Origin: an uncultured Sphaerochaeta sp.
GTDB lineage: Bacteria > Spirochaetota > Spirochaetia > Sphaerochaetales > Sphaerochaetaceae
Length of the DNA stretch: 64,000 bases
Assembly (NCBI RefSeq): GCF_963677315.2
Contig: NZ_CAXXMJ010000002.1
Location: 516,006 to 580,005, forward strand
Reading direction: 5' to 3'
Made by a program: the position numbers and the translations under genes. Below, piece after piece: positions 24,253 through 45,096 of the stretch. Position 1 is the stretch's first letter; each line of letters begins with the position of its first letter. The notes beneath the pieces were generated by a model. The model did no database searches. It was not told the DNA's origin and was given only the letters and a program-made list of their open reading frames with translations.

Positions 24253-24263
24253 ATTGTTACTCC

Positions 24264-25616: not shown

Positions 25617-25625
25617 GTATCCTCC

Positions 25626-26960
25626 CTACAGTGCCAACAAGAGATCAATGGAGGCGATGTTGTCCATCAAGGCTTTCAGGAAGCGTGCAGCATCTGCACC
25701 ATCGACTGCCTGGTGGTCCATTGTCAGCGAGAGACCAATCTTTTCAATAAAGACGATATCCCCATCCTCATCCTCTACAGGTGTGAGGGTAATGCCGCCA
25801 ACCCCAAGGATTGCAACCTCAGGCACGTTGAGTACCGGGGTGAATGCATCAATACCAAAGGCTCCTACATTACTTACCGTGAAGGTTGAACCACTGAGTT
25901 CGTCAGGCTGGGCACTTCCTTCCTTGCACTTATCAATCAGGGCCTTGGTCTCTTCAGAGAGCTGGCGGAGGCTGAGCATGTCACTATTGCGCACCACAGG
26001 GACCAGAAGACCCTTCGGTGTGTCGGTAGCGACACCAAGATGCACATGACTAAAGCGCAGCATCTTATCTCCAAGGAAGTGTGCATTGAAGGCAGGGAAC
26101 TCCAACAAGGTTCTGCTGACGGCAAAGAGAATCAAGTCATTGATCGTAACCTTGTTCAAACCAAGCTCACTCTTGGCACTCTTGAATCCTGCTCTCAGAC
26201 GTTTCAGGGCACGTGCATCAGCCTGGGCATGAAGGGTAAGCTGGCATGTGGAATGAATGGATTCCATCATCCTCCTGGCAGTCACCTTTCTCACTCCCTT
26301 CACAGGTATCTCCTGAATCTCTTCAGAGACTTCTCCCATGCGTGATGGGGCAGCAATCGCAGGTTTCACCTGTAGGTCTGAAGAGAGGACTCTTCCTCCC
26401 ATGCCACTACCACGTCCTGGAGCCTGGAGCCCCTGTTCAAGTGCCTGCTCTCTTGCAACCGGACTGAGAGGCTCTCCAGCCACTGAGGCTACATCACGTT
26501 CAATGATGCGGCCTTTCGGACCGGTGGGCTGTACAGAGGAGAGAGATACTCCCATGGAGGAAGCCAGATTGCGTGCCCTGGGGCTGGAGCCCTGAGCCTT
26601 GTCGGCCGTAGAGGGAGGAGTAGCTTTTTCAGGTTGTGTATCCTCAGCTGTTGCTGTTTCCTGTTTCTCTTCCTTTGGTTCTTCTTTATTGGTTTCTGTC
26701 TTGGGAAGCTCGACCTTCTCGCCTTCCTCTCCGACCATGACGATGGGAACCATTACGGGAACATCATCCCCTTCCTCATACAGTAAGGCCAGGACTACAC
26801 CTTCAGCGGTCGATTCAACGTCAATGGTTGACTTATCGGTCTCTGCTGAGCATAGGACATCCCCTACAGCAACCTTGTCACCTACTTTGACATTCCATTC
26901 CACAATAATGCAGGATTCCACTGAGTTTCCCTGTTTGGGCATCACAACTTGTTGTGCCAT
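25626..26960 (-). CDS. Dihydrolipoamide acyltransferase (E2) with one lipoyl domain
   Basis: Lipoyl-lysine motif SAETDKST, a Pro/Glu/Lys-rich linker, a subunit-binding domain (GPKGRIIERDV) and the catalytic motif DHQAVDGADAARF. Confidence 0.85.
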   Translation of the reverse strand: MAQQVVMPKQGNSVESCIIVEWNVKVGDKVAVGDVLCSAETDKSTIDVESTAEGVVLALLYEEGDDVPVMVPIVMVGEEGEKVELPKTETNKEEPKEEKQETATAEDTQPEKATPPSTADKAQGSSPRARNLASSMGVSLSSVQPTGPKGRIIERDVASVAGEPLSPVAREQALEQGLQAPGRGSGMGGRVLSSDLQVKPAIAAPSRMGEVSEEIQEIPVKGVRKVTARRMMESIHSTCQLTLHAQADARALKRLRAGFKSAKSELGLNKVTINDLILFAVSRTLLEFPAFNAHFLGDKMLRFSHVHLGVATDTPKGLLVPVVRNSDMLSLRQLSEETKALIDKCKEGSAQPDELSGSTFTVSNVGAFGIDAFTPVLNVPEVAILGVGGITLTPVEDEDGDIVFIEKIGLSLTMDHQAVDGADAARFLKALMDNIASIDLLLAL

Positions 26961-31773: not shown

Positions 31774-32787
31774 TTAATAGATCTCTGCGAACTTCTCGAT
31801 GTTGTCCTTGTTGAATACATAAGGAGTACTCATGAAGGCAATACCGTTCTCTTCGACCTTGATTGAGCCCATGCGACCAGCAGGAATCTCTTCTCCAGTT
31901 GCACCATCAACCGTCCCTTCAATAAGACCATTGAGGATGTAGGTGGAGCTGTATCCAAGGTCAATTGGATTCCACAGTGCCATCTGGCGACAGGTGCCGT
32001 CGAGGATGTAGCCCTTCATCTCTGAAGGAAGACCAAGACCGGTTACTTCAACAACGCCACTCTTTCCAGCGTCCTTGACAGCCTGTGCGGTTGCAAGCAG
32101 ACCAACAGTGGTCGGACAGATGATAGCCTTCAGGTTGGGATACTTCTGCATCAAGGAGACAGCTTCACGATAGCTCTTATCGGGGGCATCATCACCATAG
32201 ACGACTTCAACAAGCTTCATGTTGGAATAGTCAGCTTCCTTGATCTCTTCCTTCATCCACTCAATCCAGAGATTCTGGTTGGTAGCCTGAGCAGAAGCGG
32301 AAAGGACAGCAACATCACCCTTGTAGTCAGTCAGTTCAGCAGCAAGCTGAATCTGCTGGCGTCCAATGAGTTCGGGGTTACTGGGCAGGAGGTCAACAAT
32401 TCGTCCACCTGCGTTGATACCGGAGTCATAACTGATAACCTTGATACCGGCTGCCATGGCTTTCTTGGCTACAGGAATCAATGCATCTGCATCGTTTGCG
32501 CTGATGGCAATACCATCAACTCTCTGTGCGATCAAGGTCTCGATGATCTCAATCTGTCCCTCTGCAGTAGCCTGGGGAGGTGCCATATAGGTCGTCTTAA
32601 TCCCACCAAGCTCAGCGGCAGCTTCTTCACTACCTTTGAATACTGCATCAAAGAACCCATTTCCCATACTCTTTCCGAGAATGACAATCTCTTTTTCACC
32701 AGCTGGTGCTGCTTCCTTGGTTCCCTGGGCAAACATTGCACCAAGGGCCATGGTCATGATGAGAACAAACAACAACGTTTTCTTCAT
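31774..32787 (-). CDS. rhaS: Rhamnose-type ABC transporter substrate-binding protein
   Basis: Signal peptide MKKTLLFVLIMTMALGAMFAQ plus a type-1 PBP fold. It is the first gene of a unit that ends in rhaM. The rhamnose specificity is inferred from context. Confidence 0.7.
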   Translation of the reverse strand: MKKTLLFVLIMTMALGAMFAQGTKEAAPAGEKEIVILGKSMGNGFFDAVFKGSEEAAAELGGIKTTYMAPPQATAEGQIEIIETLIAQRVDGIAISANDADALIPVAKKAMAAGIKVISYDSGINAGGRIVDLLPSNPELIGRQQIQLAAELTDYKGDVAVLSASAQATNQNLWIEWMKEEIKEADYSNMKLVEVVYGDDAPDKSYREAVSLMQKYPNLKAIICPTTVGLLATAQAVKDAGKSGVVEVTGLGLPSEMKGYILDGTCRQMALWNPIDLGYSSTYILNGLIEGTVDGATGEEIPAGRMGSIKVEENGIAFMSTPYVFNKDNIEKFAEIY

Positions 32788-32922
32788 AACAAAACACTCC
32801 TTTTGAGAAATCTTCTCCGGGAAAACCCGGAACCTATCTGTACCTGGCAGAACACCAGGGCAAACAGCAAAACTACTGTCACAACTTCCTTTACTCTTAG
32901 TGTGACACCGATTTCAAAATCT

Positions 32923-32963
32923 GCAATAACTGAATAGTCATTTTTTAGCACGATTTTATCATG
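32923..32963. promoter_or_regulatory. Rhamnose-regulon motif, copy A (GCAATAAC-N2-AATAGTCA-N6-TAGCACGATTTTATCATG)
   Basis: It lies 136-176 nt upstream of the rhaS start. Bases 32933-32963 match copy B in 28 of 31 positions. The block 32903-32963 matches copy C in 43 of 61 positions (ungapped hand alignment). Confidence 0.6.
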
Positions 32964-33188
32964 AATGTATTTAGTTCGGCTGAATAAAAGGTACGCTTTG
33001 AGCGTAGAAGAATTTCTGAAAGCCTCCCAAAAGGGGGACTAGAGTATATCAAGTACGAGTATTCTCCATCTGCAATTTTACTTATCAAGAGTATATTACT
33101 ATTTCTCTATAGCGCATTATTCAAGAATAATTCATCGATTATCATGAACCCACTATCAGATATAGATACCTGTTGTTCACACTCTAAG

Positions 33189-33686
33189 TTAATATTGCTT
33201 ATACTTCCGTAAGAAGAGTGGCTTAATCCCTCCACATGCAATCATTGAGAGCATCTGCTCCCCAATAATCTCGCCTTGGAACACTCTCGTCCCCACCATC
33301 ACTTTCGCAGATTCCAGATCAACATGAACTACATCGCCATCAGTCACATGCCTATGAATATCCTTACAAACCAGCAAAGGCAACCCTAGATTTAAGGAGT
33401 TACGATAAAAGATTCTTGCAAAGGAAGATGCAATCACAAGTGGGATCCCGTAATTCAGCAAGGCGATTGGAGCATGCTCTCGACTTGAGCCACATCCAAA
33501 ATTTGTTGCCGCAACTACGATAGTCCCGGGTTTTATCTTATCTCGCTTATCACTGCTCAATCCTTCAAAGCAATGTTGAGAGACTTGTTTAGGCTCTGAA
33601 AATCCAAGATATCGTCCAGGATAAATCTGATCTGTATCAATATTTTTCCCTAATACAACTACATTACCAGTAAATTGAAAACTCAT
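33189..33686 (-). CDS. Aconitase-superfamily hydro-lyase small subunit (LeuD/HacB-like, 165 aa)
   Basis: Swivel-domain motifs NIDTDQIYPGRYL and NFGCGSSREHAP. 4-nt overlap with the large-subunit gene. Confidence 0.75.
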   Translation of the reverse strand: MSFQFTGNVVVLGKNIDTDQIYPGRYLGFSEPKQVSQHCFEGLSSDKRDKIKPGTIVVAATNFGCGSSREHAPIALLNYGIPLVIASSFARIFYRNSLNLGLPLLVCKDIHRHVTDGDVVHVDLESAKVMVGTRVFQGEIIGEQMLSMIACGGIKPLFLRKYKQY

Positions 33687-34951
33687 AGCATGGATCCTTT
33701 ATTGCTGAGCAGAGTTGGAGCAGCCAACATCCCTTGAATAGCACTCTCTGCAACGACAGCAGGAGAAGCAAGGTACAATTCTGCATCTCTGCTTCCCATA
33801 CGTCCTGGAAAATTTCTATTGGATGCTGTTACACACACTTCACCAGGGGCTAGTAACCCTTCATGAGCCCCCAAACACGGTCCGCAACCTGGAGATACCA
33901 GTGTAGCCCCTGCCTTAAGAAGCTTTTGCAGTGTTCCATCAGCAAGACAATGCATCATCACTTGATCCGATGCAGGAATAATCAATAATCGCGTACCTGA
34001 CGCGACATGCCTATCCCCAATGATCTTTGCTGCAATCTGGAAATCCTCCTCTCTTCCTCCTGTGCAGGTTCCAATTAAGCATTGGTCAACCTTGACTGAG
34101 GTAACCTGAGAAAGAGGAAGAACTGAATCCACACTGTGAGGTACCGCAATTTGCGACTCCAGTCCATCGATATTGAAAGAGAATTTCTGGAAGTATTGAT
34201 AGTCGTCGTCTGTCTCATAAACGGTATACTCACTCACCCCTTTCTCTGTGAGGTAGGATAATACCAATTCATCAGGATGAATATATGCTGTCTTTGCTCC
34301 CATCTCAACGGCAAGATTGCACAACACCATCTTGGAAGCAACTGACAGTTGTTCAACATACGAACCACAAAATTCTATTGCCTGATAAATTGCACCATCT
34401 GCCTTAAGCTTACCTACAACGAGCAATGCTACATCCTTTGCCATGGTCAGGGGGCCAGGAGTTCCTTCCAGACATATCTGGATGACCTCAGGAACTTTTA
34501 TCCATAACTGTCCCTCGATCATCACAGTTGCCATGTCTGTTGCACCGATACCGGTACCAAATGCTCCAAAAGCACCATGGGTTGTAGTATGGCTGTCAGT
34601 TGCTACAAAAAACATACCAGGATAAATCAATCCTGCTTCTGGAAGTACTTGGTGACAGACACCTTTCTCCACATCAAAGTGATGAGTCAGTTTCTGAGAA
34701 AGAGCAAATTCACGCATTTTTTTGTGATTCTCTGCTCCCTCAATGGAGGGAGATGGAGCATAGTGATCAAACACAAATGCAAGTTTTTCCCTATCCCACA
34801 CACGTGTTCCACCCATCTCATAAAAGGAACGAATAGCTTGAAGGTAAATATCATTTACTTCAGCAAAGTCGACATTCGCCATCACAATTTGTCCGGCTGT
34901 CACTTCTACCTTGCCAGAAGCCTTTGCTAGTATTTTTTCCAATGCATGCAT
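33683..34951 (-). CDS. Aconitase-superfamily hydro-lyase large subunit (LeuC/HacA-like, 422 aa)
   Basis: DSHTTTHGAFGAFGTGIG. Three Fe-S ligand cysteines lie in IGTCTGG and PGCGPCLG. NRNFPGRMG. The start is 12 nt after the glycosidase stop. Confidence 0.75.
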   Translation of the reverse strand: MHALEKILAKASGKVEVTAGQIVMANVDFAEVNDIYLQAIRSFYEMGGTRVWDREKLAFVFDHYAPSPSIEGAENHKKMREFALSQKLTHHFDVEKGVCHQVLPEAGLIYPGMFFVATDSHTTTHGAFGAFGTGIGATDMATVMIEGQLWIKVPEVIQICLEGTPGPLTMAKDVALLVVGKLKADGAIYQAIEFCGSYVEQLSVASKMVLCNLAVEMGAKTAYIHPDELVLSYLTEKGVSEYTVYETDDDYQYFQKFSFNIDGLESQIAVPHSVDSVLPLSQVTSVKVDQCLIGTCTGGREEDFQIAAKIIGDRHVASGTRLLIIPASDQVMMHCLADGTLQKLLKAGATLVSPGCGPCLGAHEGLLAPGEVCVTASNRNFPGRMGSRDAELYLASPAVVAESAIQGMLAAPTLLSNKGSML

Positions 34952-34963
34952 CTACACTAACCC

Positions 34964-37900
34964 TCAACTCTCACGAATTTCGAGCCAAGGCTCTGTCAGG
35001 ATTCCTGCACTACGCACTTGGTAGACATAGCTATATTTCTCTTCAGCACTACGCCAAGCCTTCGGACCAAAATACGCTTCATAGGCATTACAATTGTGGA
35101 GTTGCCCAAATGTGTTAAATCGGTTTCCAAAACAGGTAATCTCAATGGTATGTGATTGGTTATCTACAAGACCAAGATCAATAGTGTATGGTTCCCCAAT
35201 GATCTGACCCTTGTCATTACCATCCAATGAAACAGTAAGCAGAGATCCCTTGTATTGAGGTACTTTCAACAACCACCGACCTGCTTCCGCTTGTGTCCTG
35301 ATTACATAGGTAATTGAATCCCCGTAGAAAGGGAATCCTTGTCGGGTGATATCCCCAAATGAAATAGTGTGAGGTTTTTCACAGAGCATTGCCTTACTTC
35401 CCAGGAGACGTACGCCGAAGTCTCCAAGAAGGTAACACCATTCAAGATTAGTCTTTTTTCCATAAGGGATGTTCATTTCCAGCGTGTTGTTTCCTCTTTT
35501 CACTGTTCCGATTTTCCGGACAGGAAGACAGGGATCAACAAAATAGTTGCCACTCAGGGATTCTGTTATAGCATTACCATTGAAAACTATCTCTGCATCG
35601 GGTGTTTCACATGCTAGGGAAACCATCACACCATCAATTTCAGACTCAAAATCAAATCGCAATTGGACTTTGTGGGGCAAGGTTTCTTCATCCGGAACCA
35701 GCCATGGCTGAGGGAACGCCTCAGAACGTATCGGATACCCACATTCAGAACGAATTGCATCATCCAAGATCAACATCTCTTCAACATCATTCCAACTACC
35801 CCCATCAAGTGAGTATGCAGCTTGATCGAGCAAAAGATGATTTTGTTCATGCAATTGATAGGATGAAATCTCACGGATCCGATGTTTTTGCAATAGCCGA
35901 GGAGTATTGCTATCCACAGTGACTGTAATATTATTTAATTCCTTCTCAGTAGAAAGTTCGAACAACAAACTGTCATGCACATGCAAAGGATAAGAAAAAT
36001 GTGTCCATCCTTGCTTATGATCAACTTCCAATTCTATACGGTTACCTGTAAAGGTATCCAGCAATGTTACAGAGTGAAGACCTCTAACTTTTATCATACG
36101 TGTAAAATCTTCATCACTACGGAAGTTTTGCTGTTGCATCCGATTGCTTTCTCTTCCGTGGGCAATAAACAACAGAGTGCGTTTACCGTCATTTCTCATC
36201 TGATAGATAAGATCATTGCATAACGTATGATGACCATCATAGATTGCAACATCGCGCTCCGTATCCAGTGCATTAAGCAGTGCCCATTGGTCAAAACCAA
36301 TATGTAAGGCATCTCGTGTCGCTTCAAGCGCTACGTCACTTTTCTGCCCATCGACATAGGAAGGTGCCCCTCCCAGGAATATCACCTTTCCTCCAGATGC
36401 AATGAATTCTTTCAGAATAGCTAGGGTGGTACTCCGGATAGTGATAAATTGGGGGACCACCAGAACTTCATAATTCATTTCCCCGATATGACAGCTTTTC
36501 TCGTCACATCCATTAAACAATTTTGGCAACAGAGACTCAGCGACGAAATCATAATCCAATTGAGCAAACAATAACCAAGAGGTTATTGAAGTAAACTGCT
36601 CCTCTAGTTGTTTTCGTATTCCAATAGTCGCATCATCAGGGCCGAGGGTAAGCCAATAGCTTTCGATAGGATGGAGCACCCCGATCCGTACCCTAGGCTT
36701 TCCTGTAGTAAGCGCAACGTTGACTCGTGAAAAATGATCCTCAATTGTACGATATTCTTTGTACCAAGTAGAATGTTGGTCTATAGGAGCTGGATAGTCT
36801 CGCTTTGACTCTCCAGCCATAGTTGCCCAACAAAGATGATGCACACGTACAGTAACCCCCAAGGCAGCCTGCCAATCGCCTTGCAACTTATGTCCGCGGA
36901 AATCAAAATCCCAGTTTGTTACTCCATACAACTCGCTTAGTACTCCAGGGTAGCCAAACTGGTGACATGCACTTTGTGCCTGTTTTGCAGTTGCATACTC
37001 CCTTCGGTCTGCAAGCATATCTATACCTGGGAGCTTAAAGCTTCTATAGGATCGCATTGCCTCCCCGCAAAGGCGACTTTGCAGATCCAAGGTAGACTCT
37101 CCCATAAGATGTCCAGTACTAAGAATACCGTGGGATGTACACCAATCATCCAAAACATCACAATAAGCAGATGTAAATCGTTCCGTCAATATTTCAAAAT
37201 AGCGATATCGTGTTACCGGATATGCACCTGTTGTAGATTCCCAGAAAAGTTCTGGGAGCTTATCAAAGAGGCTTTCTCCGAAAACTTGTTGATATGATTC
37301 GTCAAATGTATCGGTAAATGGAATACCTACCTCATCATTCGATTCTGAGCATGAGAAATTCTGCAACTTAAAATACTGAGGTTCATCAGTAAACATCGCA
37401 GGAACTGATTTGCCCAACTCCTCTTTCAGGGTAGCGGCATACACGTCATGTGTAACACGGGTAAATTCTTTTGCTGCCTCAGGATTGAGCGTATCAACAT
37501 ACGATTGGTTGTTGAACCAGGAACTGGCTCCAGAGATAACTCTGTAAGCATGCCATATCTGGGTTCCTTCCTGAGCACTTGCACCTTTTTCTACTTTTTT
37601 ATAGCTACTCAATCTACCCTGCTCCAGAGTCACCTCATAGGAACAAAGATATGAACAATCACCATTCATATTCACGCGAGAGGCTTGGGGCAAATGTCTA
37701 TCGACATACCCATCCTCATGAAGAATCGGGCTAAAAAGGAGATACCTGATCCTGAACTCCTCATGCTGGGTGACAAGTCCTCCTGCAAATCCTGAAGGCC
37801 ACTTATCCTCATCATACAACCATGTGAGCATACCCAACTTCTTGCCAACTGTATTGCAATGCTCAACCAATTGCATGAATCTTGGCCCTAGATATGGAGT

Positions 37901-38089
37901 ATTCAAGCCTATTCGAGAATGAATATGGAACCCCCCAAAACCCATCTCGTGAAAAATCTCTATTTGCTTTTCAAGCGTCGCCTCATCCAAATCAGAGTTC
38001 CATGACCAGAATGGGGTTCCCCGGTATTCACTGGTAGGTTGTGAAAACTTATCGTTAAATGATGTATTGTGATTATAGAGAGATTTCAT
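34964..38089 (-). CDS. Large cytoplasmic glycoside hydrolase, family uncertain (possibly GH106-like alpha-L-rhamnosidase)
   Basis: 1041 aa with no signal peptide. The N-terminal YRGTPFWSWN...GFGGFHIHSRIGL pattern is one I associate, from memory only, with TIM-barrel glycosidases of the rhamnosidase type. It is co-transcribed with a CUT1 sugar transporter. Confidence 0.5.
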   Translation of the reverse strand: MKSLYNHNTSFNDKFSQPTSEYRGTPFWSWNSDLDEATLEKQIEIFHEMGFGGFHIHSRIGLNTPYLGPRFMQLVEHCNTVGKKLGMLTWLYDEDKWPSGFAGGLVTQHEEFRIRYLLFSPILHEDGYVDRHLPQASRVNMNGDCSYLCSYEVTLEQGRLSSYKKVEKGASAQEGTQIWHAYRVISGASSWFNNQSYVDTLNPEAAKEFTRVTHDVYAATLKEELGKSVPAMFTDEPQYFKLQNFSCSESNDEVGIPFTDTFDESYQQVFGESLFDKLPELFWESTTGAYPVTRYRYFEILTERFTSAYCDVLDDWCTSHGILSTGHLMGESTLDLQSRLCGEAMRSYRSFKLPGIDMLADRREYATAKQAQSACHQFGYPGVLSELYGVTNWDFDFRGHKLQGDWQAALGVTVRVHHLCWATMAGESKRDYPAPIDQHSTWYKEYRTIEDHFSRVNVALTTGKPRVRIGVLHPIESYWLTLGPDDATIGIRKQLEEQFTSITSWLLFAQLDYDFVAESLLPKLFNGCDEKSCHIGEMNYEVLVVPQFITIRSTTLAILKEFIASGGKVIFLGGAPSYVDGQKSDVALEATRDALHIGFDQWALLNALDTERDVAIYDGHHTLCNDLIYQMRNDGKRTLLFIAHGRESNRMQQQNFRSDEDFTRMIKVRGLHSVTLLDTFTGNRIELEVDHKQGWTHFSYPLHVHDSLLFELSTEKELNNITVTVDSNTPRLLQKHRIREISSYQLHEQNHLLLDQAAYSLDGGSWNDVEEMLILDDAIRSECGYPIRSEAFPQPWLVPDEETLPHKVQLRFDFESEIDGVMVSLACETPDAEIVFNGNAITESLSGNYFVDPCLPVRKIGTVKRGNNTLEMNIPYGKKTNLEWCYLLGDFGVRLLGSKAMLCEKPHTISFGDITRQGFPFYGDSITYVIRTQAEAGRWLLKVPQYKGSLLTVSLDGNDKGQIIGEPYTIDLGLVDNQSHTIEITCFGNRFNTFGQLHNCNAYEAYFGPKAWRSAEEKYSYVYQVRSAGILTEPWLEIRES

Positions 38090-38092
38090 GAA

Positions 38093-38929
38093 TTATCCTT
38101 TAACCGCACCGGCAGTTACACCTTCGAGGATTCTCTTGTTCAAAATGAGATAGAGAATGAACGGAGGGAGAGAGATGAGAACAATTGCTGCAAACAAATA
38201 ATTCCACTGCGTAAGAAATGCTGATTGGAATGTATAGACGAACAATTGAATCGTGCTGTTTCTTGCACCCGACATGTAATACAATGGATTTGCAAAATCG
38301 TTATACACGACAACCGACCGAAGAATGACAATTGTCGCTGTAATCGGTTTTAGTATTGGAAATATGATTTGAAAATAGAGCCGGGATGCAGAACATCCAT
38401 CAATAATGGCAGCAGCATCAATATCCCTTGGGATGGTTGCCATATAACCTTTATAAATCATAACCGAAAATGGGAACATTGTTGCCACTTCCACCAAGGT
38501 AAGACCGGCAAGTGTGCCGACCACACCCAACTGGGACAAAATCCAATAGGTTGAGATTACCGATGGGGGTACTATGAGACCAGCCAGAATCAACTTATTT
38601 GAAATCTTTGAAAATTTTCCTTGTCTTCGCTGCATGATATACCCTGTCATGCTGGCAACCAAGACAAGAATTACTATCGATATGATAGTAAGACGAATAC
38701 TGTTCCACATCGATCGAAAGAACAATCCATCACCATAGCTAAGGATATATGAATAATTTTCAATTATTTGCCACTTCTTAGGAAATGCCAGTGACAATCT
38801 CGCTGCTTCTGCTCTCGTCTTGAATGAATTAATGATGATGAAATAAAACACAACCCAATGTGTGAGGAATGTCAAAATCAGTGCTGATACTTCTCCAATT
38901 ATGGTCGCGGCGCTTCTTTTTATTTTCAT
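38093..38929 (-). CDS. CUT1 carbohydrate ABC transporter permease (MalG-like)
   Basis: 6-TM BPD-transporter fold with an EAA-like loop (DIDAAAIIDGCSASRLYFQIIFPILKP). The start overlaps the upstream stop. Confidence 0.85.
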   Translation of the reverse strand: MKIKRSAATIIGEVSALILTFLTHWVVFYFIIINSFKTRAEAARLSLAFPKKWQIIENYSYILSYGDGLFFRSMWNSIRLTIISIVILVLVASMTGYIMQRRQGKFSKISNKLILAGLIVPPSVISTYWILSQLGVVGTLAGLTLVEVATMFPFSVMIYKGYMATIPRDIDAAAIIDGCSASRLYFQIIFPILKPITATIVILRSVVVYNDFANPLYYMSGARNSTIQLFVYTFQSAFLTQWNYLFAAIVLISLPPFILYLILNKRILEGVTAGAVKG

Positions 38930-39792
38930 TAGAGTTCAACCTCCCTTTTTGCTACGAAGTGATTGAGAGGGAAAATGATGAAAGAGATTGAAATAAACAG
39001 GATTACGCTTCCTGCTGTAGCCAACCCATACATTCCTTGCCCGAATAGTCTATATACTACCAAGCCCAGAACTTCAGTTGAAAATCCTGGACCTCCCTCA
39101 GTCATGGTGAGGATCAATTCATAACTCTTCAAACCGCCGATCAATGACAGGGTTAGTACTGTGTTGATCGAAGAAATAATCATCGGCAATGTGATAAATC
39201 TAAAGGTCTGCACCCTGCTCGCTCCGTCAATCTTTGCCGCTTCATAATAGTCAGGGGAGATAGCTCGTAACCCTGCGATATAGATAACAGTGGTAACACC
39301 AATCCCTTTCCAGAAATCAACCAAGATAACTGAGAACAACGCTATATCTGGATTAATCAACCAACGTACCTTACTGATTCCAAAGAATGCCAACCCTTGG
39401 TTGATAATACCCGAGGGGTGCATCAAGCTGGAAAAGGCAATACCTACTACGACAAAGCCGAGAAGTGTTGGAAAATATATGATACTTTTCAAATAGCCCG
39501 AAGTCTTCAACTTCCCGCAGAGGCCAGCCGCTATAAATAGACCAAAGATTACTTTCGATAGACTTGTAGAAAACGCGTAGATAAACGTATTTCCCAAAGC
39601 TGTACGCAAATTAGTTTGAGAGAAAAAAGTCTTGAAGTTTTCCAAACCGATGAACGTTGTGCTGATTAAGTTCCACCGTGTCAAAGAAAAATAAAATGAC
39701 AAGAAGGTTGGCAAGCCAAAGATAATTAGATAGATAAGCAAACCAGGCATTACCATCCAATATTTGTATACATGTTTTTCATAACTATTCAT
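38929..39792 (-). CDS. CUT1 carbohydrate ABC transporter permease (MalF-like)
   Basis: 6-TM BPD-transporter fold with an EAA loop (YYEAAKIDGASRVQTFRFITLPM). Confidence 0.85.
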   Translation of the reverse strand: MNSYEKHVYKYWMVMPGLLIYLIIFGLPTFLSFYFSLTRWNLISTTFIGLENFKTFFSQTNLRTALGNTFIYAFSTSLSKVIFGLFIAAGLCGKLKTSGYLKSIIYFPTLLGFVVVGIAFSSLMHPSGIINQGLAFFGISKVRWLINPDIALFSVILVDFWKGIGVTTVIYIAGLRAISPDYYEAAKIDGASRVQTFRFITLPMIISSINTVLTLSLIGGLKSYELILTMTEGGPGFSTEVLGLVVYRLFGQGMYGLATAGSVILFISISFIIFPLNHFVAKREVEL

Positions 39793-39821
39793 GATAATTT
39801 ACCGGCCTAATGATAGATTAA

Positions 39822-39858
39822 TAAAGAAAAACCCAAGGCGAAACACACGTTTCGCCTT
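39822..39858 (-). terminator. Intrinsic terminator/attenuator after the CUT1 SBP gene
   Basis: The minus strand reads AAGGCGAAAC gtgt GTTTCGCCTT: a perfect 10-bp stem followed by GGGTTTTTCTTTATT. Confidence 0.65.
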
Positions 39859-39878
39859 AGGTTTAGAAATGCTGTTGC

Positions 39879-41189
39879 TTACCAGTTAGAAAGACCAAGC
39901 TGCTTAGCGGAGATTGCGTTGTCTTTGTCAATCTCTCGGGCTGCTACCTCAGGGGTAATCATTCCAGCTGCAACCTGACTGGTGTAAGTTGCCTGGTTGA
40001 TACCCTTGATGGGACTATAGTATTCCATGACTGGAATGGAAGCTTTCTCTACCCATGCCTGTGCTTCAGCCAATGAAGGATAAATATCTTCTGGGAACTC
40101 CACACCATTGAGCATGAAGGCACCGGTGGGCTTCTGAACAGAAAGATATGCCTGTACAGCTTCATTTGTGGTCATGAATTCAAGGAACAACAATGCCAAT
40201 TCAGGATTTGTTGCATTCTTGTTTGCCAAGTATGCCATTGGCATCCAAGTGGCGACACCACGTACATTGGGGTCTTTATCCGGAAGTGGGAAGAATCCCA
40301 TATCCTGAATCGCATCGGGAACCAATATCTCCATGGTTGAGAGAATATTTGTTCTGATGATTGACATGGCTGCTGTGCCGTCCCCAAGCATCATTGCAAC
40401 ATCCTCAACTGATGTAGCCAATGCATCCTCATTCAGATAGTCATTCACTGCAAGGTCATACATTTTCTGAAGACCTCCAACAAATGTCTTGGAGTCTGAA
40501 AGCCTGATTTCATTCCGTGTGTACTTTGCTGCAAATTCAGGATCTTCCTGGGCAACATAGTAGTAGTTCATCAAGAACGGAACTTGGGTGAGGCTTGTCT
40601 TTGAGTTTGGAGCCGCAACCGGAGCAATTCCTGCTTTCTTGATTACTGCACAAGTGTCCAAGAACTCATTCCATGTCAATGGAACATCAAGCCCCAAATC
40701 TTCAAAGATTCTCTTATTGTAGAAAACACCTGCAACGTTGGATGGAGCCAAGGGCACGCCATACACAGCACCATCAATGGTAGCAGCTTCTTTAAAGTTA
40801 GCATCAAGATTGCCAATCCATGGCTGATCCTTGATGTCAATTACATTTTCAGCAGGATAACTCTCATAGAGTTTTGCACCTACAGAACTTGCAAAGATAT
40901 CTGGCAAGGACTTTGTAGCAACACGTGTTCTCCTGAGGTTTTCTCCTGCATCACCACTGGGAACGACCTCTACTTCAATTTTTACGCCGTACTTTTCTTC
41001 AAAAGCCTTGTGCTGGGCTCTTGCTGCCTCAAATTCACCTTCTTTGTTAGTCATCATCATGGTAAGAGTCTGACCCGCAAATTTGCTCTTGCCTTCAGTA
41101 GGGACAGCAACCTCCTGCTTCCCTGCTGCAAAAATGTTCAAAGGCAATACAACAAGTACCAATAATAACAGAACAATACCTTTTCTCAT
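39879..41189 (-). CDS. CUT1 (family 1) extracellular solute-binding protein for an oligosaccharide ABC transporter
   Basis: Signal peptide MRKGIVLLLLVLVVLPLNIFAAG, 436 aa, MalE-like fold. AAGGAGAAAGGA SD. Confidence 0.8.
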   Translation of the reverse strand: MRKGIVLLLLVLVVLPLNIFAAGKQEVAVPTEGKSKFAGQTLTMMMTNKEGEFEAARAQHKAFEEKYGVKIEVEVVPSGDAGENLRRTRVATKSLPDIFASSVGAKLYESYPAENVIDIKDQPWIGNLDANFKEAATIDGAVYGVPLAPSNVAGVFYNKRIFEDLGLDVPLTWNEFLDTCAVIKKAGIAPVAAPNSKTSLTQVPFLMNYYYVAQEDPEFAAKYTRNEIRLSDSKTFVGGLQKMYDLAVNDYLNEDALATSVEDVAMMLGDGTAAMSIIRTNILSTMEILVPDAIQDMGFFPLPDKDPNVRGVATWMPMAYLANKNATNPELALLFLEFMTTNEAVQAYLSVQKPTGAFMLNGVEFPEDIYPSLAEAQAWVEKASIPVMEYYSPIKGINQATYTSQVAAGMITPEVAAREIDKDNAISAKQLGLSNW

Positions 41190-41482
41190 TCCTTTCTCCT
41201 TTTGTTCCGGAAATCCGGATATATTTCAATTCCTGTATTTCAGGAATTTTACACTTCTAACAATATGTAGCAAATCACCTCCTCAAAATATATCTTTATA
41301 TCAAATTGAAATCAAATCTAATTCCTCATAGTGTCATATGTAAATTATGTAATTATGTTCACAATTTTGTTGCTAGGTATTACATTTAGAAAATACATTT
41401 CAAATATCTATAAATATTTTATATTTTCTGGATATAACATCAATTCTTTTCTAATGAAAGTCTGACACATTTACAAATAAGC

Positions 41483-41522
41483 GCAATAACGTAATTGTCA
41501 ATTTTTAGCACTATTTTGCCAT
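41483..41522. promoter_or_regulatory. Rhamnose-regulon motif, copy C (GCAATAAC-N2-AATTGTCA-N6-TAGCACTATTTTGCCAT)
   Basis: It lies ~300 nt upstream of the CUT1 SBP start, in the same orientation as copies A and B. The minus-strand reading contains a perfect TTGACA. Confidence 0.55.
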
Positions 41523-41722
41523 ATTCATAATTATTTGCAAAACAAAAGCCAAAAAAAAGGATTCTGTAAGTATCTCGTAATGCATCGAAAACCTAAAATC
41601 AGGGGACTCTTCTCAGCCTAATGACTTTTCGCATAGAAAACAGAAATGCCTATAAGTCACGCAGCCGGATATAGGATTTTTCATTGTAATAGATTGATAG
41701 AGAACAGAAATGAAGAGTCAGA

Positions 41723-42664
41723 CTAGCTCCTCTTCTTTCCAAACAGCACTCCCCCCAGCAACCCTACGAATGTCTGCTGGAAGAGTATTCCCAAAATGAC
41801 AGGAAGGGCTGCAAGAGGAGAAAAATAGGTAGTAGCAAGCACCAAAGCTGCACTGATATTCCTCATTCCTCCGGTGAACGTCATACTGACAAGGCTGGGA
41901 CGATCCACCTTCAGGACATATCTGGCGAGTACATAGACAAGGAGGAACCCCAAGGCAATGACAAAGAGGTTCATCAGGATAAGTGGAACATAGATCCAGG
42001 AAAATGAGAGAGAACCAGAGAGAGCTCCAACATGGATTATTACCACAAAAATAAGCAGAAGCTTGGTAAAAGGACTGAGATAGAGCACGGCTTCCTTTGC
42101 AACCTTGGGCATGGTTTGGGTAACCAACATCCCCACAAGGGATGGAAGGACGATCATCACCAACAAGCTGGTCATGATCCCTCCTTGGTCGATTGCCACT
42201 GTCGTATTGGAAAGCAGCCTGATCGTCAGGGGTGTCAGGATGGGAGAAAGCAAGGTATCAAGAATGATGAGTGAAAGGGCAAGGGCGGCGTCTCCCTCAT
42301 AAATGGTTGACCAGATAAAGGCGGTCACTGCAATCGGAATCGAAGAGAGCAACACAAAACCGGTGACAATATCAGGGTGTGTGGGAAATATCACTCGTCC
42401 AATGAGTGCGACAAAAACCGGCAGCACTATATGCGCACTGAAGAGCACAAGCAGCACAGAGGTCATTCGACGTGCGATCTGGGCAAACTGACGATAGCTT
42501 ACCCCCAAGGCTCCTACAAAGGTAATGAATGCGAAAAAATAGGTTCCAAGAAAACGGAAGGAATCCAAACGATGACCAAGCAGCAAGCCGAGCACCACAC
42601 CAATTGGTGTAACGAACGGCATCACCGCATTAAAACGCTTGTTTATATCCTGCAGTGATGCCAT
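41723..42664 (-). CDS. Bile acid:Na+ symporter (BASS/SBF) family transporter
   Basis: 313 aa, about 9-10 predicted TM segments. The sequence style is typical of SBF-like carriers. It starts 5 nt after the aldolase stop. Confidence 0.65.
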   Translation of the reverse strand: MASLQDINKRFNAVMPFVTPIGVVLGLLLGHRLDSFRFLGTYFFAFITFVGALGVSYRQFAQIARRMTSVLLVLFSAHIVLPVFVALIGRVIFPTHPDIVTGFVLLSSIPIAVTAFIWSTIYEGDAALALSLIILDTLLSPILTPLTIRLLSNTTVAIDQGGIMTSLLVMIVLPSLVGMLVTQTMPKVAKEAVLYLSPFTKLLLIFVVIIHVGALSGSLSFSWIYVPLILMNLFVIALGFLLVYVLARYVLKVDRPSLVSMTFTGGMRNISAALVLATTYFSPLAALPVILGILFQQTFVGLLGGVLFGKKRS

Positions 42665-42669
42665 CTTAC

Positions 42670-43749
42670 CTACTTTGATGCAACTGAAGACCGATATTTC
42701 TCCACTTCCCAGTTTCTGATGAAATCAATCATTGCATCATCCATGAAACGGGGCCCTCCAAAACTCTCGGTATATACTGCAATTGATACAGTATCCAAAA
42801 AGAGTGGCATCGGCTTCTCTCCCAGGGAGAATACCCCTAGGTTCTGTATGCAGACAATCTTTGGACTCACGCCGTGTTCGGCCTCATACTGTTTAAAAGC
42901 AGAAACTACATCCTGCCCCTCTTCAACCCAGAGTGGCTTGAAACCGGCATAGACAATATGGTCAGGGGTAAAGGAGGAAGCAACTGCCTGGAAATGGTTC
43001 TCATTCTGCAGGTAGTGCGCAAACTCCTTATTCCACGAGAAAAGAACTGGTTCTTTAGTAAGACCCCCAAGCTCTTTTTTGACTGATTCAACGCGGGAAG
43101 AGTCTGCCTCCAGAGAAGAAAAATCAGGCTTTCTTACCAACTGGGAGGAAATTTTTCCCATCAAGGAGTTGTAGAGGCTTTCTATCTCCTCCAAACTCTG
43201 CCCACCGGCAAAAATACCATGGTTCTGCAGGAAAATCAGAGAGCTGACGGTCCCAGTTTCCTTTTTTTGATCGGCCATCCTGGAGCGAACAATATCTGCA
43301 AGGATGAATCCAGGCTTCACCAATTCAATCCAGAGTGCTTCAGGGAAAAGCCTGGCAACAGCCTTCTCTCCTTCTTGCGCACAGGTAAGACCATTCACCA
43401 TGGCAGGGTGAAGGTGGATGACATAAGGAAAGGGGAGCAATGCATGGAGCAAGGCCTCAACAGAAGGCCGTGCTGTCTCTCCTTCGAGGCGACAATCCAT
43501 CATATCCTTGAGGACTTCATCCTCTCTCTGCTCGTCATCATTGCTGTACTGTTTTCCCCAGATACTCTCAAGCTTCCTCAGATCCATCTTGACAAAACCC
43601 GATTCATCAATGGTTCCCAAGGCATGGCCACTAGCCTTTACATAGAGGATGTTCCCCTCTTTATAGGAGGTGTTTCCACCTCCCAATAATACGTAAGAAG
43701 GGTCCGAACCATACCGCTTGGAGTGGGCAATCAGGGATGCAAAACTCAT
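42670..43749 (-). CDS. Class II aldolase/adducin-domain protein, RhaE-like rhamnulose-1-phosphate aldolase (aldolase half of RhaEW)
   Basis: LLGGGNTSYK, VKASGHALG and VIHLHP motifs as in the N-terminal domain of YuxG/RhaEW-type proteins (from memory). 4-nt overlap with the rhaA stop. Confidence 0.7.
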   Translation of the reverse strand: MSFASLIAHSKRYGSDPSYVLLGGGNTSYKEGNILYVKASGHALGTIDESGFVKMDLRKLESIWGKQYSNDDEQREDEVLKDMMDCRLEGETARPSVEALLHALLPFPYVIHLHPAMVNGLTCAQEGEKAVARLFPEALWIELVKPGFILADIVRSRMADQKKETGTVSSLIFLQNHGIFAGGQSLEEIESLYNSLMGKISSQLVRKPDFSSLEADSSRVESVKKELGGLTKEPVLFSWNKEFAHYLQNENHFQAVASSFTPDHIVYAGFKPLWVEEGQDVVSAFKQYEAEHGVSPKIVCIQNLGVFSLGEKPMPLFLDTVSIAVYTESFGGPRFMDDAMIDFIRNWEVEKYRSSVASK

Positions 43750-44996: not shown

Positions 44997-45065
44997 GACA
45001 GCCCTCCTCATACGAAAGTATTTACTCTAATAGTTTGCCATCATTTGCATTTTTTACCTTGACAG

Positions 45066-45096
45066 AATAGTCAAATTCTAGCACGATTTTATCATG
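45066..45096. promoter_or_regulatory. Rhamnose-regulon motif, copy B (AATAGTCA-N6-TAGCACGATTTTATCATG)
   Basis: It sits in the 97-nt rhaA/araC-type divergent region. Its last three bases are the listed ATG of the AraC-family gene. Confidence 0.6.

What the first reader, a model, noticed from the sequence alone, without database searches (positions are those of the whole stretch)
33189..34951. Aconitase-family LeuCD-like hydro-lyase co-transcribed with a glycosidase and an oligosaccharide ABC transporter
Seen:
- The large subunit has the DSHTTTHGAFGAFG motif and all three Fe-S cysteines. The small subunit has GCGSSREHAP. The two genes overlap by 4 nt.
- The large-subunit start is only 12 nt after the glycosidase stop.
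- The whole SBP-permease-permease-GH-LeuC-LeuD string lies behind motif copy C.
- No leuA, leuB or ilv genes are in the window.
- After the conserved YL of the small-subunit substrate loop the sequence reads GF (GRYLGF).

Established: aconitase-superfamily enzymes dehydrate and rehydrate hydroxy di- or tricarboxylates such as citrate, 2-isopropylmalate, homocitrate, citramalate and (di)methylmaleate. As far as I know they are not part of sugar-polymer utilisation loci.

Inference: this may be a specialised enzyme acting on a carbohydrate-derived hydroxy acid.

Pure speculation: branched acidic sugars found next to rhamnose in pectic RG-II, such as aceric acid, carry the tertiary hydroxy-acid chemistry this fold handles.
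Basis: partly seen in the sequence, partly recalled or inferred. Interest (0 to 1): 0.65.

Follow-up and report, generated by a model that had tools for sequence, protein, structure and literature searches.

The report
Non-biosynthetic LeuCD enzyme in rhamnoside operon
A two-subunit iron-sulfur dehydratase that looks like the leucine-pathway enzyme LeuCD belongs to an uncharacterised catabolic branch of that family, and it sits as the last two genes of a rhamnose-controlled sugar-uptake and glycosidase operon, a link that recurs in unrelated bacteria and points to an undescribed step in breaking down acidic plant glycans.

Summary
On the minus strand an SBP, two permeases, a 1041-aa GH106-like glycosidase, a LeuC-like gene (33683-34951) and a LeuD-like gene (33189-33686) form one tight string. 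It lies behind one of three copies of a 66-nt element that also precedes rhaA and the rhamnose ABC transporter.

All aconitase-family catalytic motifs are intact. Both subunits pass only the subfamily models and fail the LeuCD and HacAB equivalog cut-offs. In a rough tree they fall in a clade (50-69% identity) whose members sit in organic-acid operons: GntR with a GntP permease, a CitS-like carrier with CitM and citrate lyase, tartrate dehydrogenase, and a malate-racemase-like LarA.

Linkage to intracellular glycosidases recurs. GH106-like genes appear in three gene orders and two LeuC subclades. GH4 appears with a GH88::LarA fusion. Three Sphaerochaetaceae lineages keep GH-LeuC-LeuD, and three syntenic relatives lack LeuCD.

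The most likely function is a catabolic hydro-lyase acting on a malate-core (2-hydroxy-1,4-dicarboxylate) acid tied to the imported glycoside. The substrate is unknown. The aceric-acid idea is untested. I found no paper describing this association.

The parts
45031..45096 (-). Copy 1 of the 66-nt promoter/operator-like element, in the divergent rhaA / AraC-family regulator region
   Evidence: the repeat finder family D1, 73% identity to the reference copy; sequence read
41458..41523 (-). Copy 2 of the 66-nt element, about 270 nt upstream of the SBP gene.
   Evidence: the 29-nt core GTGCTAAAAANTGACNATTNNGTTATTGC occurs twice against 0.00 expected by chance
39879..41189 (-). Extracellular solute-binding protein of a CUT1-type carbohydrate ABC importer (lipoprotein-like N-terminus)
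   Evidence: Pfam SBP_bac_1 E 1.6e-29; PDB hits are all sugar- or oligosaccharide-binding proteins, and all are weak
39829..39864 (-). 16-bp GC-rich hairpin followed by a T run, directly after the SBP gene. Probably an attenuator or mRNA stabiliser rather than the end of the operon.
38929..39792 (-). ABC permease 1
   Evidence: Pfam BPD_transp_1
38093..38929 (-). ABC permease 2. Its start codon shares one base with the end of the permease 1 ORF, and it ends 3 nt before the GH start.
34964..38089 (-). Intracellular glycosidase of 1041 aa with no signal peptide. It is distantly GH106-like (alpha-L-rhamnosidase fold).
   Evidence: Pfam GH106 scores 25.3 bits, below the 29-bit cut-off. The AlphaFold model has pLDDT 89. 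The best PDB folds are the GH106 enzymes 6q2f and 5mwk/5mqm (E 7e-37 to 4e-32, TM 0.53-0.58, 11-12% identity), against E 1e-15 for the next fold class.
33683..34951 (-). LeuC-like large subunit of a heterodimeric aconitase-family [4Fe-4S] hydro-lyase
   Evidence: Pfam Aconitase E 4e-91. It passes the subfamily models TIGR02086, TIGR01343 and NF001614 but fails LEU2 (434 vs 610) and HacA_Meth (431 vs 550). C296, C356 and C359, DSHTTTHG and NRNFPGR are present.
33189..33686 (-). LeuD-like small subunit. It carries the GSSRE substrate-binding motif and an unusual substrate-recognition loop, YLGF.
   Evidence: It passes only TIGR02087 (LeuD/DmdB subfamily) and fails leud (148 vs 246) and HacB (148 vs 230).
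32992..33006 (-). Weak terminator-like hairpin between LeuD and the next promoter element
   Evidence: This is a consensus match only and no more frequent than in shuffled sequence.
32898..32963 (-). Copy 3 of the 66-nt element, upstream of the rhamnose ABC transporter operon (rhaS-like SBP 31774-32787 onward). It marks the downstream boundary of the LeuCD operon.
   Evidence: It is conserved, with one mismatch in the 29-nt core, in the LeuCD-less relatives L089 and L090.

Best explanation
**What it is.** Genes 33683-34951 and 33189-33686 encode the large and small subunits of a heterodimeric [4Fe-4S] hydro-lyase of the LeuCD/HacAB/DmdAB branch of the aconitase superfamily. It is not the leucine-pathway enzyme. 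It belongs to an uncharacterised catabolic clade.

**How it most likely works (from family knowledge, not shown here).**
- The labile iron of the cluster, held by C296, C356 and C359, binds the hydroxyl and the adjacent carboxylate of a 2-hydroxy-1,4-dicarboxylate, that is, a malate-core acid carrying some substituent R.
- The serine of GSSRE in the small subunit removes the proton next to the second carboxylate.
- Water leaves, giving a cis-enedioate.
- That product is either rehydrated the other way round (hydroxyl migration) or, if R is a hydroxyl as in tartrate, tautomerises to a 2-oxo acid such as oxaloacetate.

**What R is not.** The substrate-recognition loop lacks the Arg of aconitase and homoaconitase, so R is not a carboxyalkyl group.

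**Role in this genome (inferred).** The enzyme is made as the last two genes of a rhamnose-regulon operon. That operon imports an oligosaccharide or glycoside through the SBP and two permeases and splits it in the cytoplasm with a GH106-like glycosidase. The enzyme would convert an acid that is released from, or made from, that substrate into a central metabolite.

**Status of each step.**
- Shown: gene anatomy, motif integrity, family placement, and recurrent linkage to glycosidases.
- Inferred: co-transcription, rhamnose control, the malate-core substrate, and the metabolic tie to the glycosidase product.
- Unknown: the identity of the acid.
For: **Intact enzyme.** All catalytic motifs are present. 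The GSSRE motif and the small-subunit loop are the accepted substrate-binding and specificity elements of this family (PMC7308503).

**Not LeuCD or HacAB.**
- Only subfamily models are passed and the equivalog cut-offs are missed by a wide margin.
- In an NJ tree the large subunit lies in a 50-69% identity clade. Loci with LeuA-like or LeuB-like neighbours, M. jannaschii LeuC and M. jannaschii HacA all lie outside it.

**The clade is catabolic and centred on C4 hydroxy-diacids.**
- Recurrent neighbours are GntR with a GntP permease, LysR, a CitS-like 2-hydroxycarboxylate carrier with a CitM-type malic enzyme and citrate lyase, and TctA.
- One neighbour passes the tartrate dehydrogenase equivalog (497.5, cut-off 470.4). 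A LarA neighbour passes the malate racemase equivalog (543.6, cut-off 500) (PDB Mar2 E 1e-114).
- No clade member has Arg or Lys at the first loop position.

**Tie to glycoside use.**
- GH106-like-LeuC-LeuD is kept in three Sphaerochaetaceae lineages while LeuC drifts to 69% and the glycosidase to 60% identity. These are the window, L180 with L094, and L001.
- A second LeuC subclade carries GH106-like genes in two other orders. One is GH-LarA-LeuC-LeuD(-MR_MLE) in L002 and in Murimonas intestini L007. The other is LeuC-LeuD-permease-permease-GH-HK-RR in L097.
- A further group has GH4-ABC-MR_MLE-LeuC-LeuD-GH88::LarA fusion.

**Part of the cassette.** GC3 of the glycosidase (0.38), LeuC (0.36) and LeuD (0.36) match one another and differ from the flanking rha genes (0.50-0.58).

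**Same control element** as rhaA and the rhamnose transporter.
Against: - No experiment or paper connects any clade member to a substrate.
- Three syntenic relatives (L089, L090, L181) have the identical rha locus and glycosidase cassette without LeuCD, so the glycosidase does not need it.
- Among glycosidase relatives whose locus was reached from a glycosidase hit, only L001 of five informative sequences had LeuCD beside it.
- Most clade members have no glycosidase nearby, so the clade as a whole may act on free acids.
- The window lacks the LarA and enolase-superfamily partners seen in the Firmicutes loci.
- Its loop (YLGF; subclade YLG[F/Y/L]) differs from theirs (YL/FL followed by D/E/A and then L/I). 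The substrate may therefore differ between subclades.
- No known product of rhamnoside or rhamnogalacturonan hydrolysis (rhamnose, galacturonate, unsaturated uronate) has a malate core.
- The tree is a simple NJ tree without support values.
Confidence: 0.55

Rival explanations
1. The enzyme is a catabolic hydro-lyase for a free plant organic acid taken up independently, for example D- or meso-tartrate giving oxaloacetate, D-malate/maleate, or citraconate/citramalate. It merely sits in the sugar operon, and the adjacency to the glycosidase has no metabolic meaning.
For: - The commonest contexts of the clade are self-contained acid operons without any glycosidase. These are GntR-LeuC-LeuD-GntP, LysR-LeuCD, CitS-like carrier with CitM and citrate lyase, and tartrate dehydrogenase with TctA.
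- The regulator, two-subunit Fe-S dehydratase and carrier layout is the layout of the E. coli L-tartrate operon ttdR-ttdAB-ttdT (own knowledge).
- LeuCD is dispensable for the cassette in L089, L090 and L181.
- Clostridial genomes are dense in GH/ABC cassettes, so some adjacency arises by chance. One example is a GH31 next to L040.
Against: - The window operon has no carrier for a free acid. The only importer is a CUT1 sugar system.
- The in-operon position recurs in at least three gene orders and two LeuC subclades, including LeuCD placed between the promoter and the permeases in L097.
- A glycosidase is physically fused to the LarA partner in L010 and L079.
- The linkage survives down to 60-69% identity within Sphaerochaetaceae.
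Confidence: 0.28
2. It is the organism's biosynthetic isopropylmalate/citramalate isomerase for leucine and possibly isoleucine, acquired horizontally and lodged by chance in the rhamnose locus.
For: - The best solved-structure match is the M. jannaschii isopropylmalate/citramalate isomerase (397 bits large subunit, 149 bits small subunit).
- The window subclade's loop G-[F/Y/L] is small plus hydrophobic, like the V-Y of that isomerase.
- Public annotations call the relatives '3-isopropylmalate dehydratase'.
- No second leuCD could be looked for.
Against: - It fails the LeuC and LeuD equivalog cut-offs by 176 and 98 bits.
- It is 39-45% identical to LeuC genes that sit beside LeuA-like or LeuB-like genes, but 57-69% identical to members of acid and glycoside operons.
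- There is no leuA, leuB or ilv in 64 kb.
- It is absent from the same locus in close syntenic relatives. A sole biosynthetic gene would not be expected to vary that way.
- It is placed behind a rhamnose-regulon element.
Confidence: 0.1
3. The glycosidase releases aceric acid (3-C-carboxy-5-deoxy-L-xylose) from a rhamnogalacturonan-II fragment. After oxidation at C1, the resulting 2,3-dihydroxy-3-(1-hydroxyethyl)succinate is dehydrated by this enzyme.
For: - Chemically coherent. As far as I know, oxidised aceric acid is the only known sugar-derived acid with the 2-hydroxy-3-carboxy (succinate-backbone) pattern this fold needs, and aceric acid is linked to rhamnose in RG-II chain B (own knowledge).
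- The glycosidase has a GH106 fold, like the RG-II enzyme BT_0986.
- The Gly in the loop leaves room for a larger neutral R group.
Against: - No aldose dehydrogenase or lactonase is linked to LeuCD in any of the loci.
- The glycosidase family is very large in Clostridia: 7118 hits at E below 1e-10 among the 8000 candidates scored. That is hard to square with a rare RG-II fragment.
- The partner enzymes elsewhere point to malate or tartrate.
- No paper on aceric acid catabolism was found.
Confidence: 0.04

Closest known systems
Isopropylmalate/citramalate isomerase LeuCD of Methanocaldococcus jannaschii (MJ0499/MJ1277; PDB 4kp1, 4nqy, 3vba)
   Same: - Two-subunit architecture, with subunits of about 420 and 165 aa.
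- All cluster ligands and catalytic motifs are shared.
- It is the best solved-structure match (397 and 149 bits).
- The specificity loop is hydrophobic.
   Different: - The loop is YLGF instead of YLVY.
- The window enzyme fails the bacterial LeuC and LeuD equivalog models.
- It has no leuA or leuB neighbours and sits in a sugar operon.
- It groups with catabolic loci in the tree.
Homoaconitase HacAB of methanogens (PDB 4kp2, 2pkp)
   Same: Same fold and motifs. The cluster-binding stretch PGCGPCLGAH(E/Q)G is nearly identical to that of HacA.
   Different: HacB has YLRT, in which the Arg binds the extra carboxylate. The window has Gly there. The window enzyme also fails the HacA and HacB equivalogs.
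2,3-Dimethylmalate dehydratase DmdAB of Eubacterium barkeri, and maleate hydratase (HbzIJ type): the known catabolic LeuCD paralogues
   Same: - They are LeuCD-type enzymes used in degradation rather than biosynthesis (own knowledge).
- They act on substituted or plain malate/maleate.
- The small subunit falls under the NCBIfam model named 'LeuD/DmdB family'.
   Different: - No nicotinate-fermentation or gentisate-pathway genes lie nearby.
- No reference sequences were at hand, so relatedness was not measured.
- Neither of them is known from a glycoside operon.
L-tartrate dehydratase operon ttdR-ttdAB-ttdT of E. coli
   Same: It works like the commonest clade context. A regulator, a two-subunit oxygen-labile Fe-S dehydratase and an acid carrier together turn a C4 hydroxy-diacid into a central metabolite in one step (own knowledge). 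Tartrate dehydrogenase and a malate-racemase-like LarA accompany the clade.
   Different: TtdAB belongs to the class I fumarase family, not the aconitase family. There is no sequence relation, since Pfam finds only Aconitase domains here.
GH106 alpha-L-rhamnosidases BT_0986 (5mqm, 5mwk) and RHA-P (6q2f), for the neighbouring glycosidase
   Same: Full-length fold match (E 7e-37 to 4e-32, TM 0.53-0.58). The N-terminal motif is shared. The gene sits in a rhamnose locus.
   Different: Only 11-12% identity. It scores below the Pfam GH106 cut-off and far below the BT4145 equivalog (37 vs 1300). Specificity is untested, and it may merit a family of its own.

Membership tests
Aconitase superfamily, heterodimeric LeuCD/HacAB/DmdAB branch | Three cysteine ligands of the [4Fe-4S] cluster in the large subunit | tested here: met
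   C296, C356 and C359 align with the cluster cysteines of M. jannaschii LeuC and HacA
Aconitase superfamily, heterodimeric LeuCD/HacAB/DmdAB branch | Catalytic and substrate-binding motifs DSHT..HG and NRNFxGR in the large subunit, and GSSRE in the small subunit | tested here: met
   DSHTTTHGAFGAFG at residue 119, NRNFPGR at residue 378, GCGSSREHAP at residue 64 of LeuD. The role of GSSRE is described in PMC7308503.
Aconitase superfamily, heterodimeric LeuCD/HacAB/DmdAB branch | Curated subfamily HMM cut-offs | tested here: met
   TIGR02086 498.5 vs 410; TIGR01343 498.2 vs 386; NF001614 518 vs 385; TIGR02087 155.8 vs 109
Aconitase superfamily, heterodimeric LeuCD/HacAB/DmdAB branch | Separate, adjacent genes for the large and small subunits | tested here: met
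   The two genes overlap by 4 nt
3-Isopropylmalate dehydratase LeuCD (EC 4.2.1.33), biosynthetic | Equivalog HMM cut-offs (TIGR02083 LEU2, TIGR02084 leud, TIGR00170/00171) | tested here: not met
   434.4 vs 610.65; 147.9 vs 245.85; 211 vs 560; 81 vs 116
3-Isopropylmalate dehydratase LeuCD (EC 4.2.1.33), biosynthetic | Genomic association with leuA, leuB or ilv genes | tested here: not met
   None in the 64-kb window. Clade relatives also lack them, with the exception of tartrate-dehydrogenase-type LeuB homologues. The rest of the genome could not be examined.
3-Isopropylmalate dehydratase LeuCD (EC 4.2.1.33), biosynthetic | Specificity loop of the isomerase type (YLVY in MJ1277; YLVT or YLN[LI] in loci with LeuA/LeuB-like neighbours) | tested here: inconclusive
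   The window has YLGF. This is hydrophobic like YLVY, but Gly replaces Val. The subclade has YLG[F/Y/L].
3-Isopropylmalate dehydratase LeuCD (EC 4.2.1.33), biosynthetic | Activity on 2- and 3-isopropylmalate; complementation of a leuCD mutant | not testable with these tools
   Needs anaerobic enzymology and genetics
Homoaconitase HacAB | Equivalog cut-offs, and Arg-Thr in the small-subunit loop (YLRT) | tested here: not met
   HacA_Meth 431 vs 550; HacB_Meth 148 vs 230. The loop is GF, not RT.
Aconitase (tricarboxylate-specific) | A basic residue that recognises the gamma-carboxylate (Arg580 equivalent) at the loop position | tested here: not met
   Gly in the window. No Arg or Lys at that position in any of the clade small subunits examined. 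The aconitase HMMs are far below cut-off.
2,3-Dimethylmalate dehydratase DmdAB / maleate hydratase | Sequence grouping with the characterised enzymes, and neighbouring pathway genes (nicotinate fermentation; gentisate pathway) | not tested
No such pathway genes were seen near any clade member.
Glycoside hydrolase family 106 (for the neighbouring 1041-aa protein) | Pfam or NCBIfam family cut-off | tested here: not met
   PF17132 25.3 vs 29; NF049897 37 vs 1300; no PDB sequence hit with the single sequence
Glycoside hydrolase family 106 (for the neighbouring 1041-aa protein) | Overall multi-domain fold of GH106 | tested here: met
   Foldseek top three hits are 6q2f, 5mwk and 5mqm (E 7e-37 to 4e-32), 17 or more orders of magnitude better than the next fold class
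Glycoside hydrolase family 106 (for the neighbouring 1041-aa protein) | Catalytic Glu pair, calcium site, and alpha-L-rhamnosidase activity | not tested
   Residue mapping was not done. Activity needs an assay.

The most novel reading that the evidence does not exclude
The clade would mark an undescribed catabolic route. In it an aconitase-superfamily hydro-lyase processes a malate-core hydroxy-dicarboxylic acid that enters the cell glycosidically bound, or is formed from the products of intracellular GH106-like, GH4 or GH88/105 enzymes acting on rhamnose- and uronate-containing plant glycans. In Firmicutes the hydro-lyase would work together with a malate-racemase-like nickel-pincer LarA, sometimes fused to a GH88/105 hydrolase, and an enolase-superfamily enzyme. 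That would be the first aconitase-family enzyme with a role in glycan utilisation, and it would imply either an unrecognised acidic component or aglycone, or a new uronate-to-C4-diacid conversion.
Probability: 0.25. Interest if true: 0.78.

Novelty: new variant of a known kind. Interest (0 to 1): 0.58.

Why it matters
- **Annotation.** Proteins of this clade are annotated throughout gut, rumen and digester genomes as '3-isopropylmalate dehydratase'. Metabolic models therefore credit these organisms with a leucine-pathway step that the genes probably do not perform.
- **Missing chemistry.** If the link to glycosidases is metabolic, a step in the anaerobic breakdown of pectic or other acidic glycans is missing from current schemes. 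It would involve three cofactor-rich enzymes: an Fe-S hydro-lyase, a nickel-pincer racemase and an enolase-superfamily member.
- **Testability.** Cultured strains carry the module, namely Murimonas intestini DSM 26524 (L007) and Clostridium sp. 1001271st1_H5 (L010). Natural LeuCD-plus and LeuCD-minus variants of the same Sphaerochaetaceae locus also exist.

Tried and rejected
- **Aconitase or homoaconitase function.** Rejected, because no basic residue sits at the loop position anywhere in the clade.
- **Aldarates longer than C4 (galactarate, glucarate) as substrates.** Rejected on mechanism: the carbon that loses the proton must carry a carboxylate. This rests on established aconitase-family chemistry and is an inference.
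- **Sequence search of the glycosidase against solved structures.** It found nothing. A profile search found only a 46-residue N-terminal match to 6q2f. The fold search settled the question.
- **Solved-structure search with the SBP.** It gave only generic sugar-binding proteins and no ligand clue.
- **Genome and metagenome scans with LeuC.** Neither found anything closer than 64% identity. The close relatives came only from the protein collection.
- **Locus L177 (LeuC 69%).** It has 272 nt upstream of LeuC without a glycosidase match, so the linkage is undetermined there.
- **Literature searches.** Searches on aceric acid catabolism, LarA with isopropylmalate isomerase, tartrate dehydratase with isopropylmalate, catabolic LeuCD, isopropylmalate dehydratase with rhamnogalacturonan, and maleate hydratase returned nothing relevant. 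The rhamnose-regulon paper PMC3870299 does not mention aconitase-type genes or spirochaetes.
- **A second leuCD in the genome.** This could not be checked.
- **Uronate 5-epimerase or uronate dehydratase roles for the LarA and enolase partners.** Considered, but they do not explain the LeuCD enzyme.


Full report
**Anatomy.** The finding sits on the minus strand of a rhamnose/fucose utilisation region.
- Reading in the direction of transcription, the region starts with an AraC-family regulator (45094-45963, divergent). Then come L-rhamnose isomerase (43746-45011), a class II aldolase like the N-terminal half of RhaEW (42670-43749) and an SBF-family carrier (41723-42664).
- A 533-nt gap follows.
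- Next comes the string of interest: SBP (39879-41189), two permeases (38929-39792, 38093-38929), a 1041-aa glycosidase (34964-38089), LeuC-like (33683-34951) and LeuD-like (33189-33686).
- After a 401-nt gap come the rhamnose ABC transporter genes, the mutarotase RhaM, a DeoR regulator and a 2-oxoacid dehydrogenase complex.
- Inside the string the junctions are 3 nt (permease to glycosidase), 12 nt (glycosidase to LeuC) and a 4-nt overlap (LeuC to LeuD).
- A 66-nt element occurs three times: in front of rhaA, in front of the SBP gene and in front of the rhamnose transporter. Its 29-nt core occurs twice against none expected by chance.
- The copy in front of the transporter is conserved in related genomes.
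- The six-gene string therefore looks like one operon of a rhamnose regulon. This rests on spacing and a shared element, not on expression data.

**The enzyme is intact.**
- The large subunit has DSHTTTHGAFGAFG, the three cluster cysteines (C296, C356, C359) and NRNFPGR. The small subunit has GCGSSREHAP.
- GSSRE is the conserved substrate-binding motif of this family. A flexible loop near the N-terminus of the small subunit sets substrate preference (PMC7308503).
- That loop reads YLVY in the M. jannaschii isopropylmalate/citramalate isomerase, YLRT in its homoaconitase and YLGF in the window.

**It is not a canonical LeuCD.**
- Both subunits pass only broad subfamily models. They miss the LeuC, LeuD, HacA and HacB equivalog cut-offs by wide margins.
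- The nearest relatives outside Sphaerochaetaceae are 57-64% identical proteins of Clostridia, Treponema and Fusobacteriaceae.
- In an NJ tree these relatives, together with a 50-53% group (Acidaminococcus and others), form a clade.
- That clade excludes every locus with LeuA-like or LeuB-like neighbours (45% identity or less) and both M. jannaschii reference enzymes.
- The tree is rough and has no support values, but the split in identity and in gene context is clear.

**What the clade does elsewhere.** I called genes in the first 96 loci, clustered the neighbours, and searched all 176 loci held by then with the neighbour proteins by tblastn. Four contexts dominate.
- GntR, LeuC, LeuD and a GntP-family permease. 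This is the commonest context and is frequent in human gut metagenomes.
- A LysR regulator with LeuCD.
- A CitM-type malic enzyme, a CitS-like 2-hydroxycarboxylate carrier, LeuCD and citrate lyase.
- TctA and a LeuB homologue with LeuCD. The LeuB homologue passes the tartrate dehydrogenase equivalog.

A LarA homologue also recurs. It passes the malate racemase (LarAH6) equivalog and matches the Mar2 structure at E 1e-114. Its substrate loop differs from that of Mar2, with HWF/GAK in place of HYK/GHK. No clade member has a basic residue at the first loop position; they carry D, E, A, Q or G. The extra group on the substrate is therefore not a carboxylate. Together with the fully conserved carboxylate-binding motifs, this points to a malate-core acid: malate, a tartrate isomer or another substituted malate.

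**The link to glycosidases.** This is the unusual part, and it holds up.
- Glycosidase-LeuC-LeuD is found in the window and in a Sphaerochaetaceae MAG. In that MAG one contig ends inside the glycosidase gene. A second contig begins with the last 74 glycosidase residues (80% identical) and continues, 21 nt later, with LeuC (85%) and LeuD (78%).
- The same order is found in metagenome contig L001 (LeuC 69%, glycosidase 60%).
- A second LeuC subclade, 63-64% identical to the window and 71% identical within itself, carries homologous cassettes (SBP, two permeases, GH106-like) in two other layouts. One is GH-LarA-LeuC-LeuD, with or without an enolase-superfamily gene (L002, L003 and Murimonas intestini L007). 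The other is LeuC-LeuD-permease-permease-GH-kinase-regulator (L096, L097).
- A third group (L010, L079, L098) has GntR, GH4, ABC importer, an enolase-family gene, LeuC, LeuD and a single 808-aa protein that fuses a GH88/105 hydrolase to a LarA domain.
- In the window the glycosidase and LeuCD share a low GC3 (0.36-0.38). It sets the whole cassette apart from the flanks (0.50-0.58). The cassette is a compositional island in the LeuCD-less relative L089 too.

**The glycosidase.** It has no sequence match among solved structures. A confident model (pLDDT 89) matches the GH106 alpha-L-rhamnosidases over its full length far better than anything else. GH106-like, GH4 (which includes alpha-galacturonidases, from own knowledge) and GH88/105 (unsaturated uronyl hydrolases) are the enzyme types that split rhamnogalacturonan-type disaccharides. 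That substrate class is a guess.

**Limits.**
- Three syntenic loci (L089, L090, L181) have the same rha genes and the same cassette with nothing between the glycosidase and the transporter promoter.
- L001, which carries LeuCD, has a more distant glycosidase (60%) than these LeuCD-less loci (64-65%). Loss of LeuCD is therefore as likely as gain.
- Other family members, in L091-L093, also lack LeuCD.
- In L095 the cassette lies next to a different diacid module: an enolase-family gene, two LarA-like genes, TctCBA and a DHDPS-family gene.
- The window subclade has a loop of its own, YLG[F/Y/L], and lacks the LarA and enolase partners. Its substrate need not be the one used in Firmicutes.
- None of the usual hydrolysis products (rhamnose, galacturonate, unsaturated uronate) has a malate core, so the chemical connection is unexplained.
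- Nine of the ten allowed literature searches turned up nothing on this association.

**Verdict.** The gene pair is a non-biosynthetic, catabolic LeuCD paralogue, and its tie to glycoside utilisation is conserved but facultative.
- I put 0.55 on a role coupled to the imported glycoside.
- I put 0.28 on an unrelated free-acid role.
- I put 0.10 on leucine biosynthesis.
- I put 0.04 on the aceric-acid idea, which if true would be a special case of the glycoside-coupled role.

It is a new variant of a known enzyme kind with an unknown substrate.

Noticed in passing
window 45031-45096, 41458-41523, 32898-32963: A 66-nt element (core GTGCTAAAAANTGACNATTNNGTTATTGC ... TGTCACAC) precedes three operons of the rhamnose locus. 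It is probably the operator and promoter for the adjacent AraC-family regulator (45094-45963). It is conserved in L089 and L090.
   Followed up: partly
window 33189-41189: The SBP-to-LeuD block is a compositional island. Its GC3 is 0.36-0.46 against 0.50-0.58 in the flanking rha genes. The same cassette is an island in L089 as well (0.42-0.54 against 0.64-0.74). This suggests horizontal acquisition at this site before the lineages split.
   Followed up: partly
window 21799-26960: A 2-oxoacid dehydrogenase complex lies directly downstream of the DeoR regulator and the rhamnose transporter. It comprises a fused E1 alpha/beta of 817 aa, an E3 and an E2. It is conserved in that place in L089 and L090. 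This is unexpected in a fermentative spirochaete locus and may oxidise pyruvate made from rhamnose-derived lactate.
   Followed up: no
window 42670-43749 and 19300-20460: The bifunctional RhaEW (aldolase plus lactaldehyde dehydrogenase) appears to be split into two separate genes about 22 kb apart. One is a 359-aa aldolase-only protein and the other a 386-aa short-chain dehydrogenase.
   Followed up: no
window 41723-42664: An SBF/BASS-family carrier (closest named model: ketopantoate/pantoate carrier PanS, far below cut-off) sits inside the rhaA operon and is conserved there in L089 and L181. Its substrate is unknown, and it might carry lactate or another acid.
   Followed up: no
L010 11809-14235; L079 (75% identical homologue): An 808-aa protein fuses a GH88/105 unsaturated-uronyl hydrolase domain (residues 7-356) to a complete LarA nickel-pincer racemase domain (394-796). 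I found no description of such a fusion.
   Followed up: partly
L095 10866-20681: Next to a 65%-identical copy of the glycosidase cassette lies a diacid module under a PrpR-type sigma-54 activator. It holds an enolase-superfamily gene, two LarA-like genes, the tricarboxylate-type carrier TctCBA and a DHDPS-family gene. It looks like an aldarate pathway.
   Followed up: no
L006, L013, L020, L021: LeuCD-like genes are embedded in what otherwise looks like a classic citrate-fermentation operon: CitA/B-like two-component system, CitM, a CitS-like carrier, and CitD/E/F. The small-subunit loop carries Glu or Ala rather than Arg, so they are unlikely to be aconitases.
   Followed up: partly
window 39829-39864: A 16-bp hairpin with a T tract lies immediately after the SBP gene. 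This is the usual device for making more binding protein than permease.
   Followed up: no
window 13064-16555 and 50667-56659: A SWIM-zinc-finger SNF2 helicase of 1163 aa interrupts the sugar loci. An AddAB-type helicase-nuclease pair lies further on. Both are unrelated to the finding.
   Followed up: no
window 49669-50688: An Ldh_2-family (malate/L-lactate dehydrogenase type 2) gene lies near the fucose isomerase genes. It could act on lactate or on another 2-hydroxy acid.
   Followed up: no
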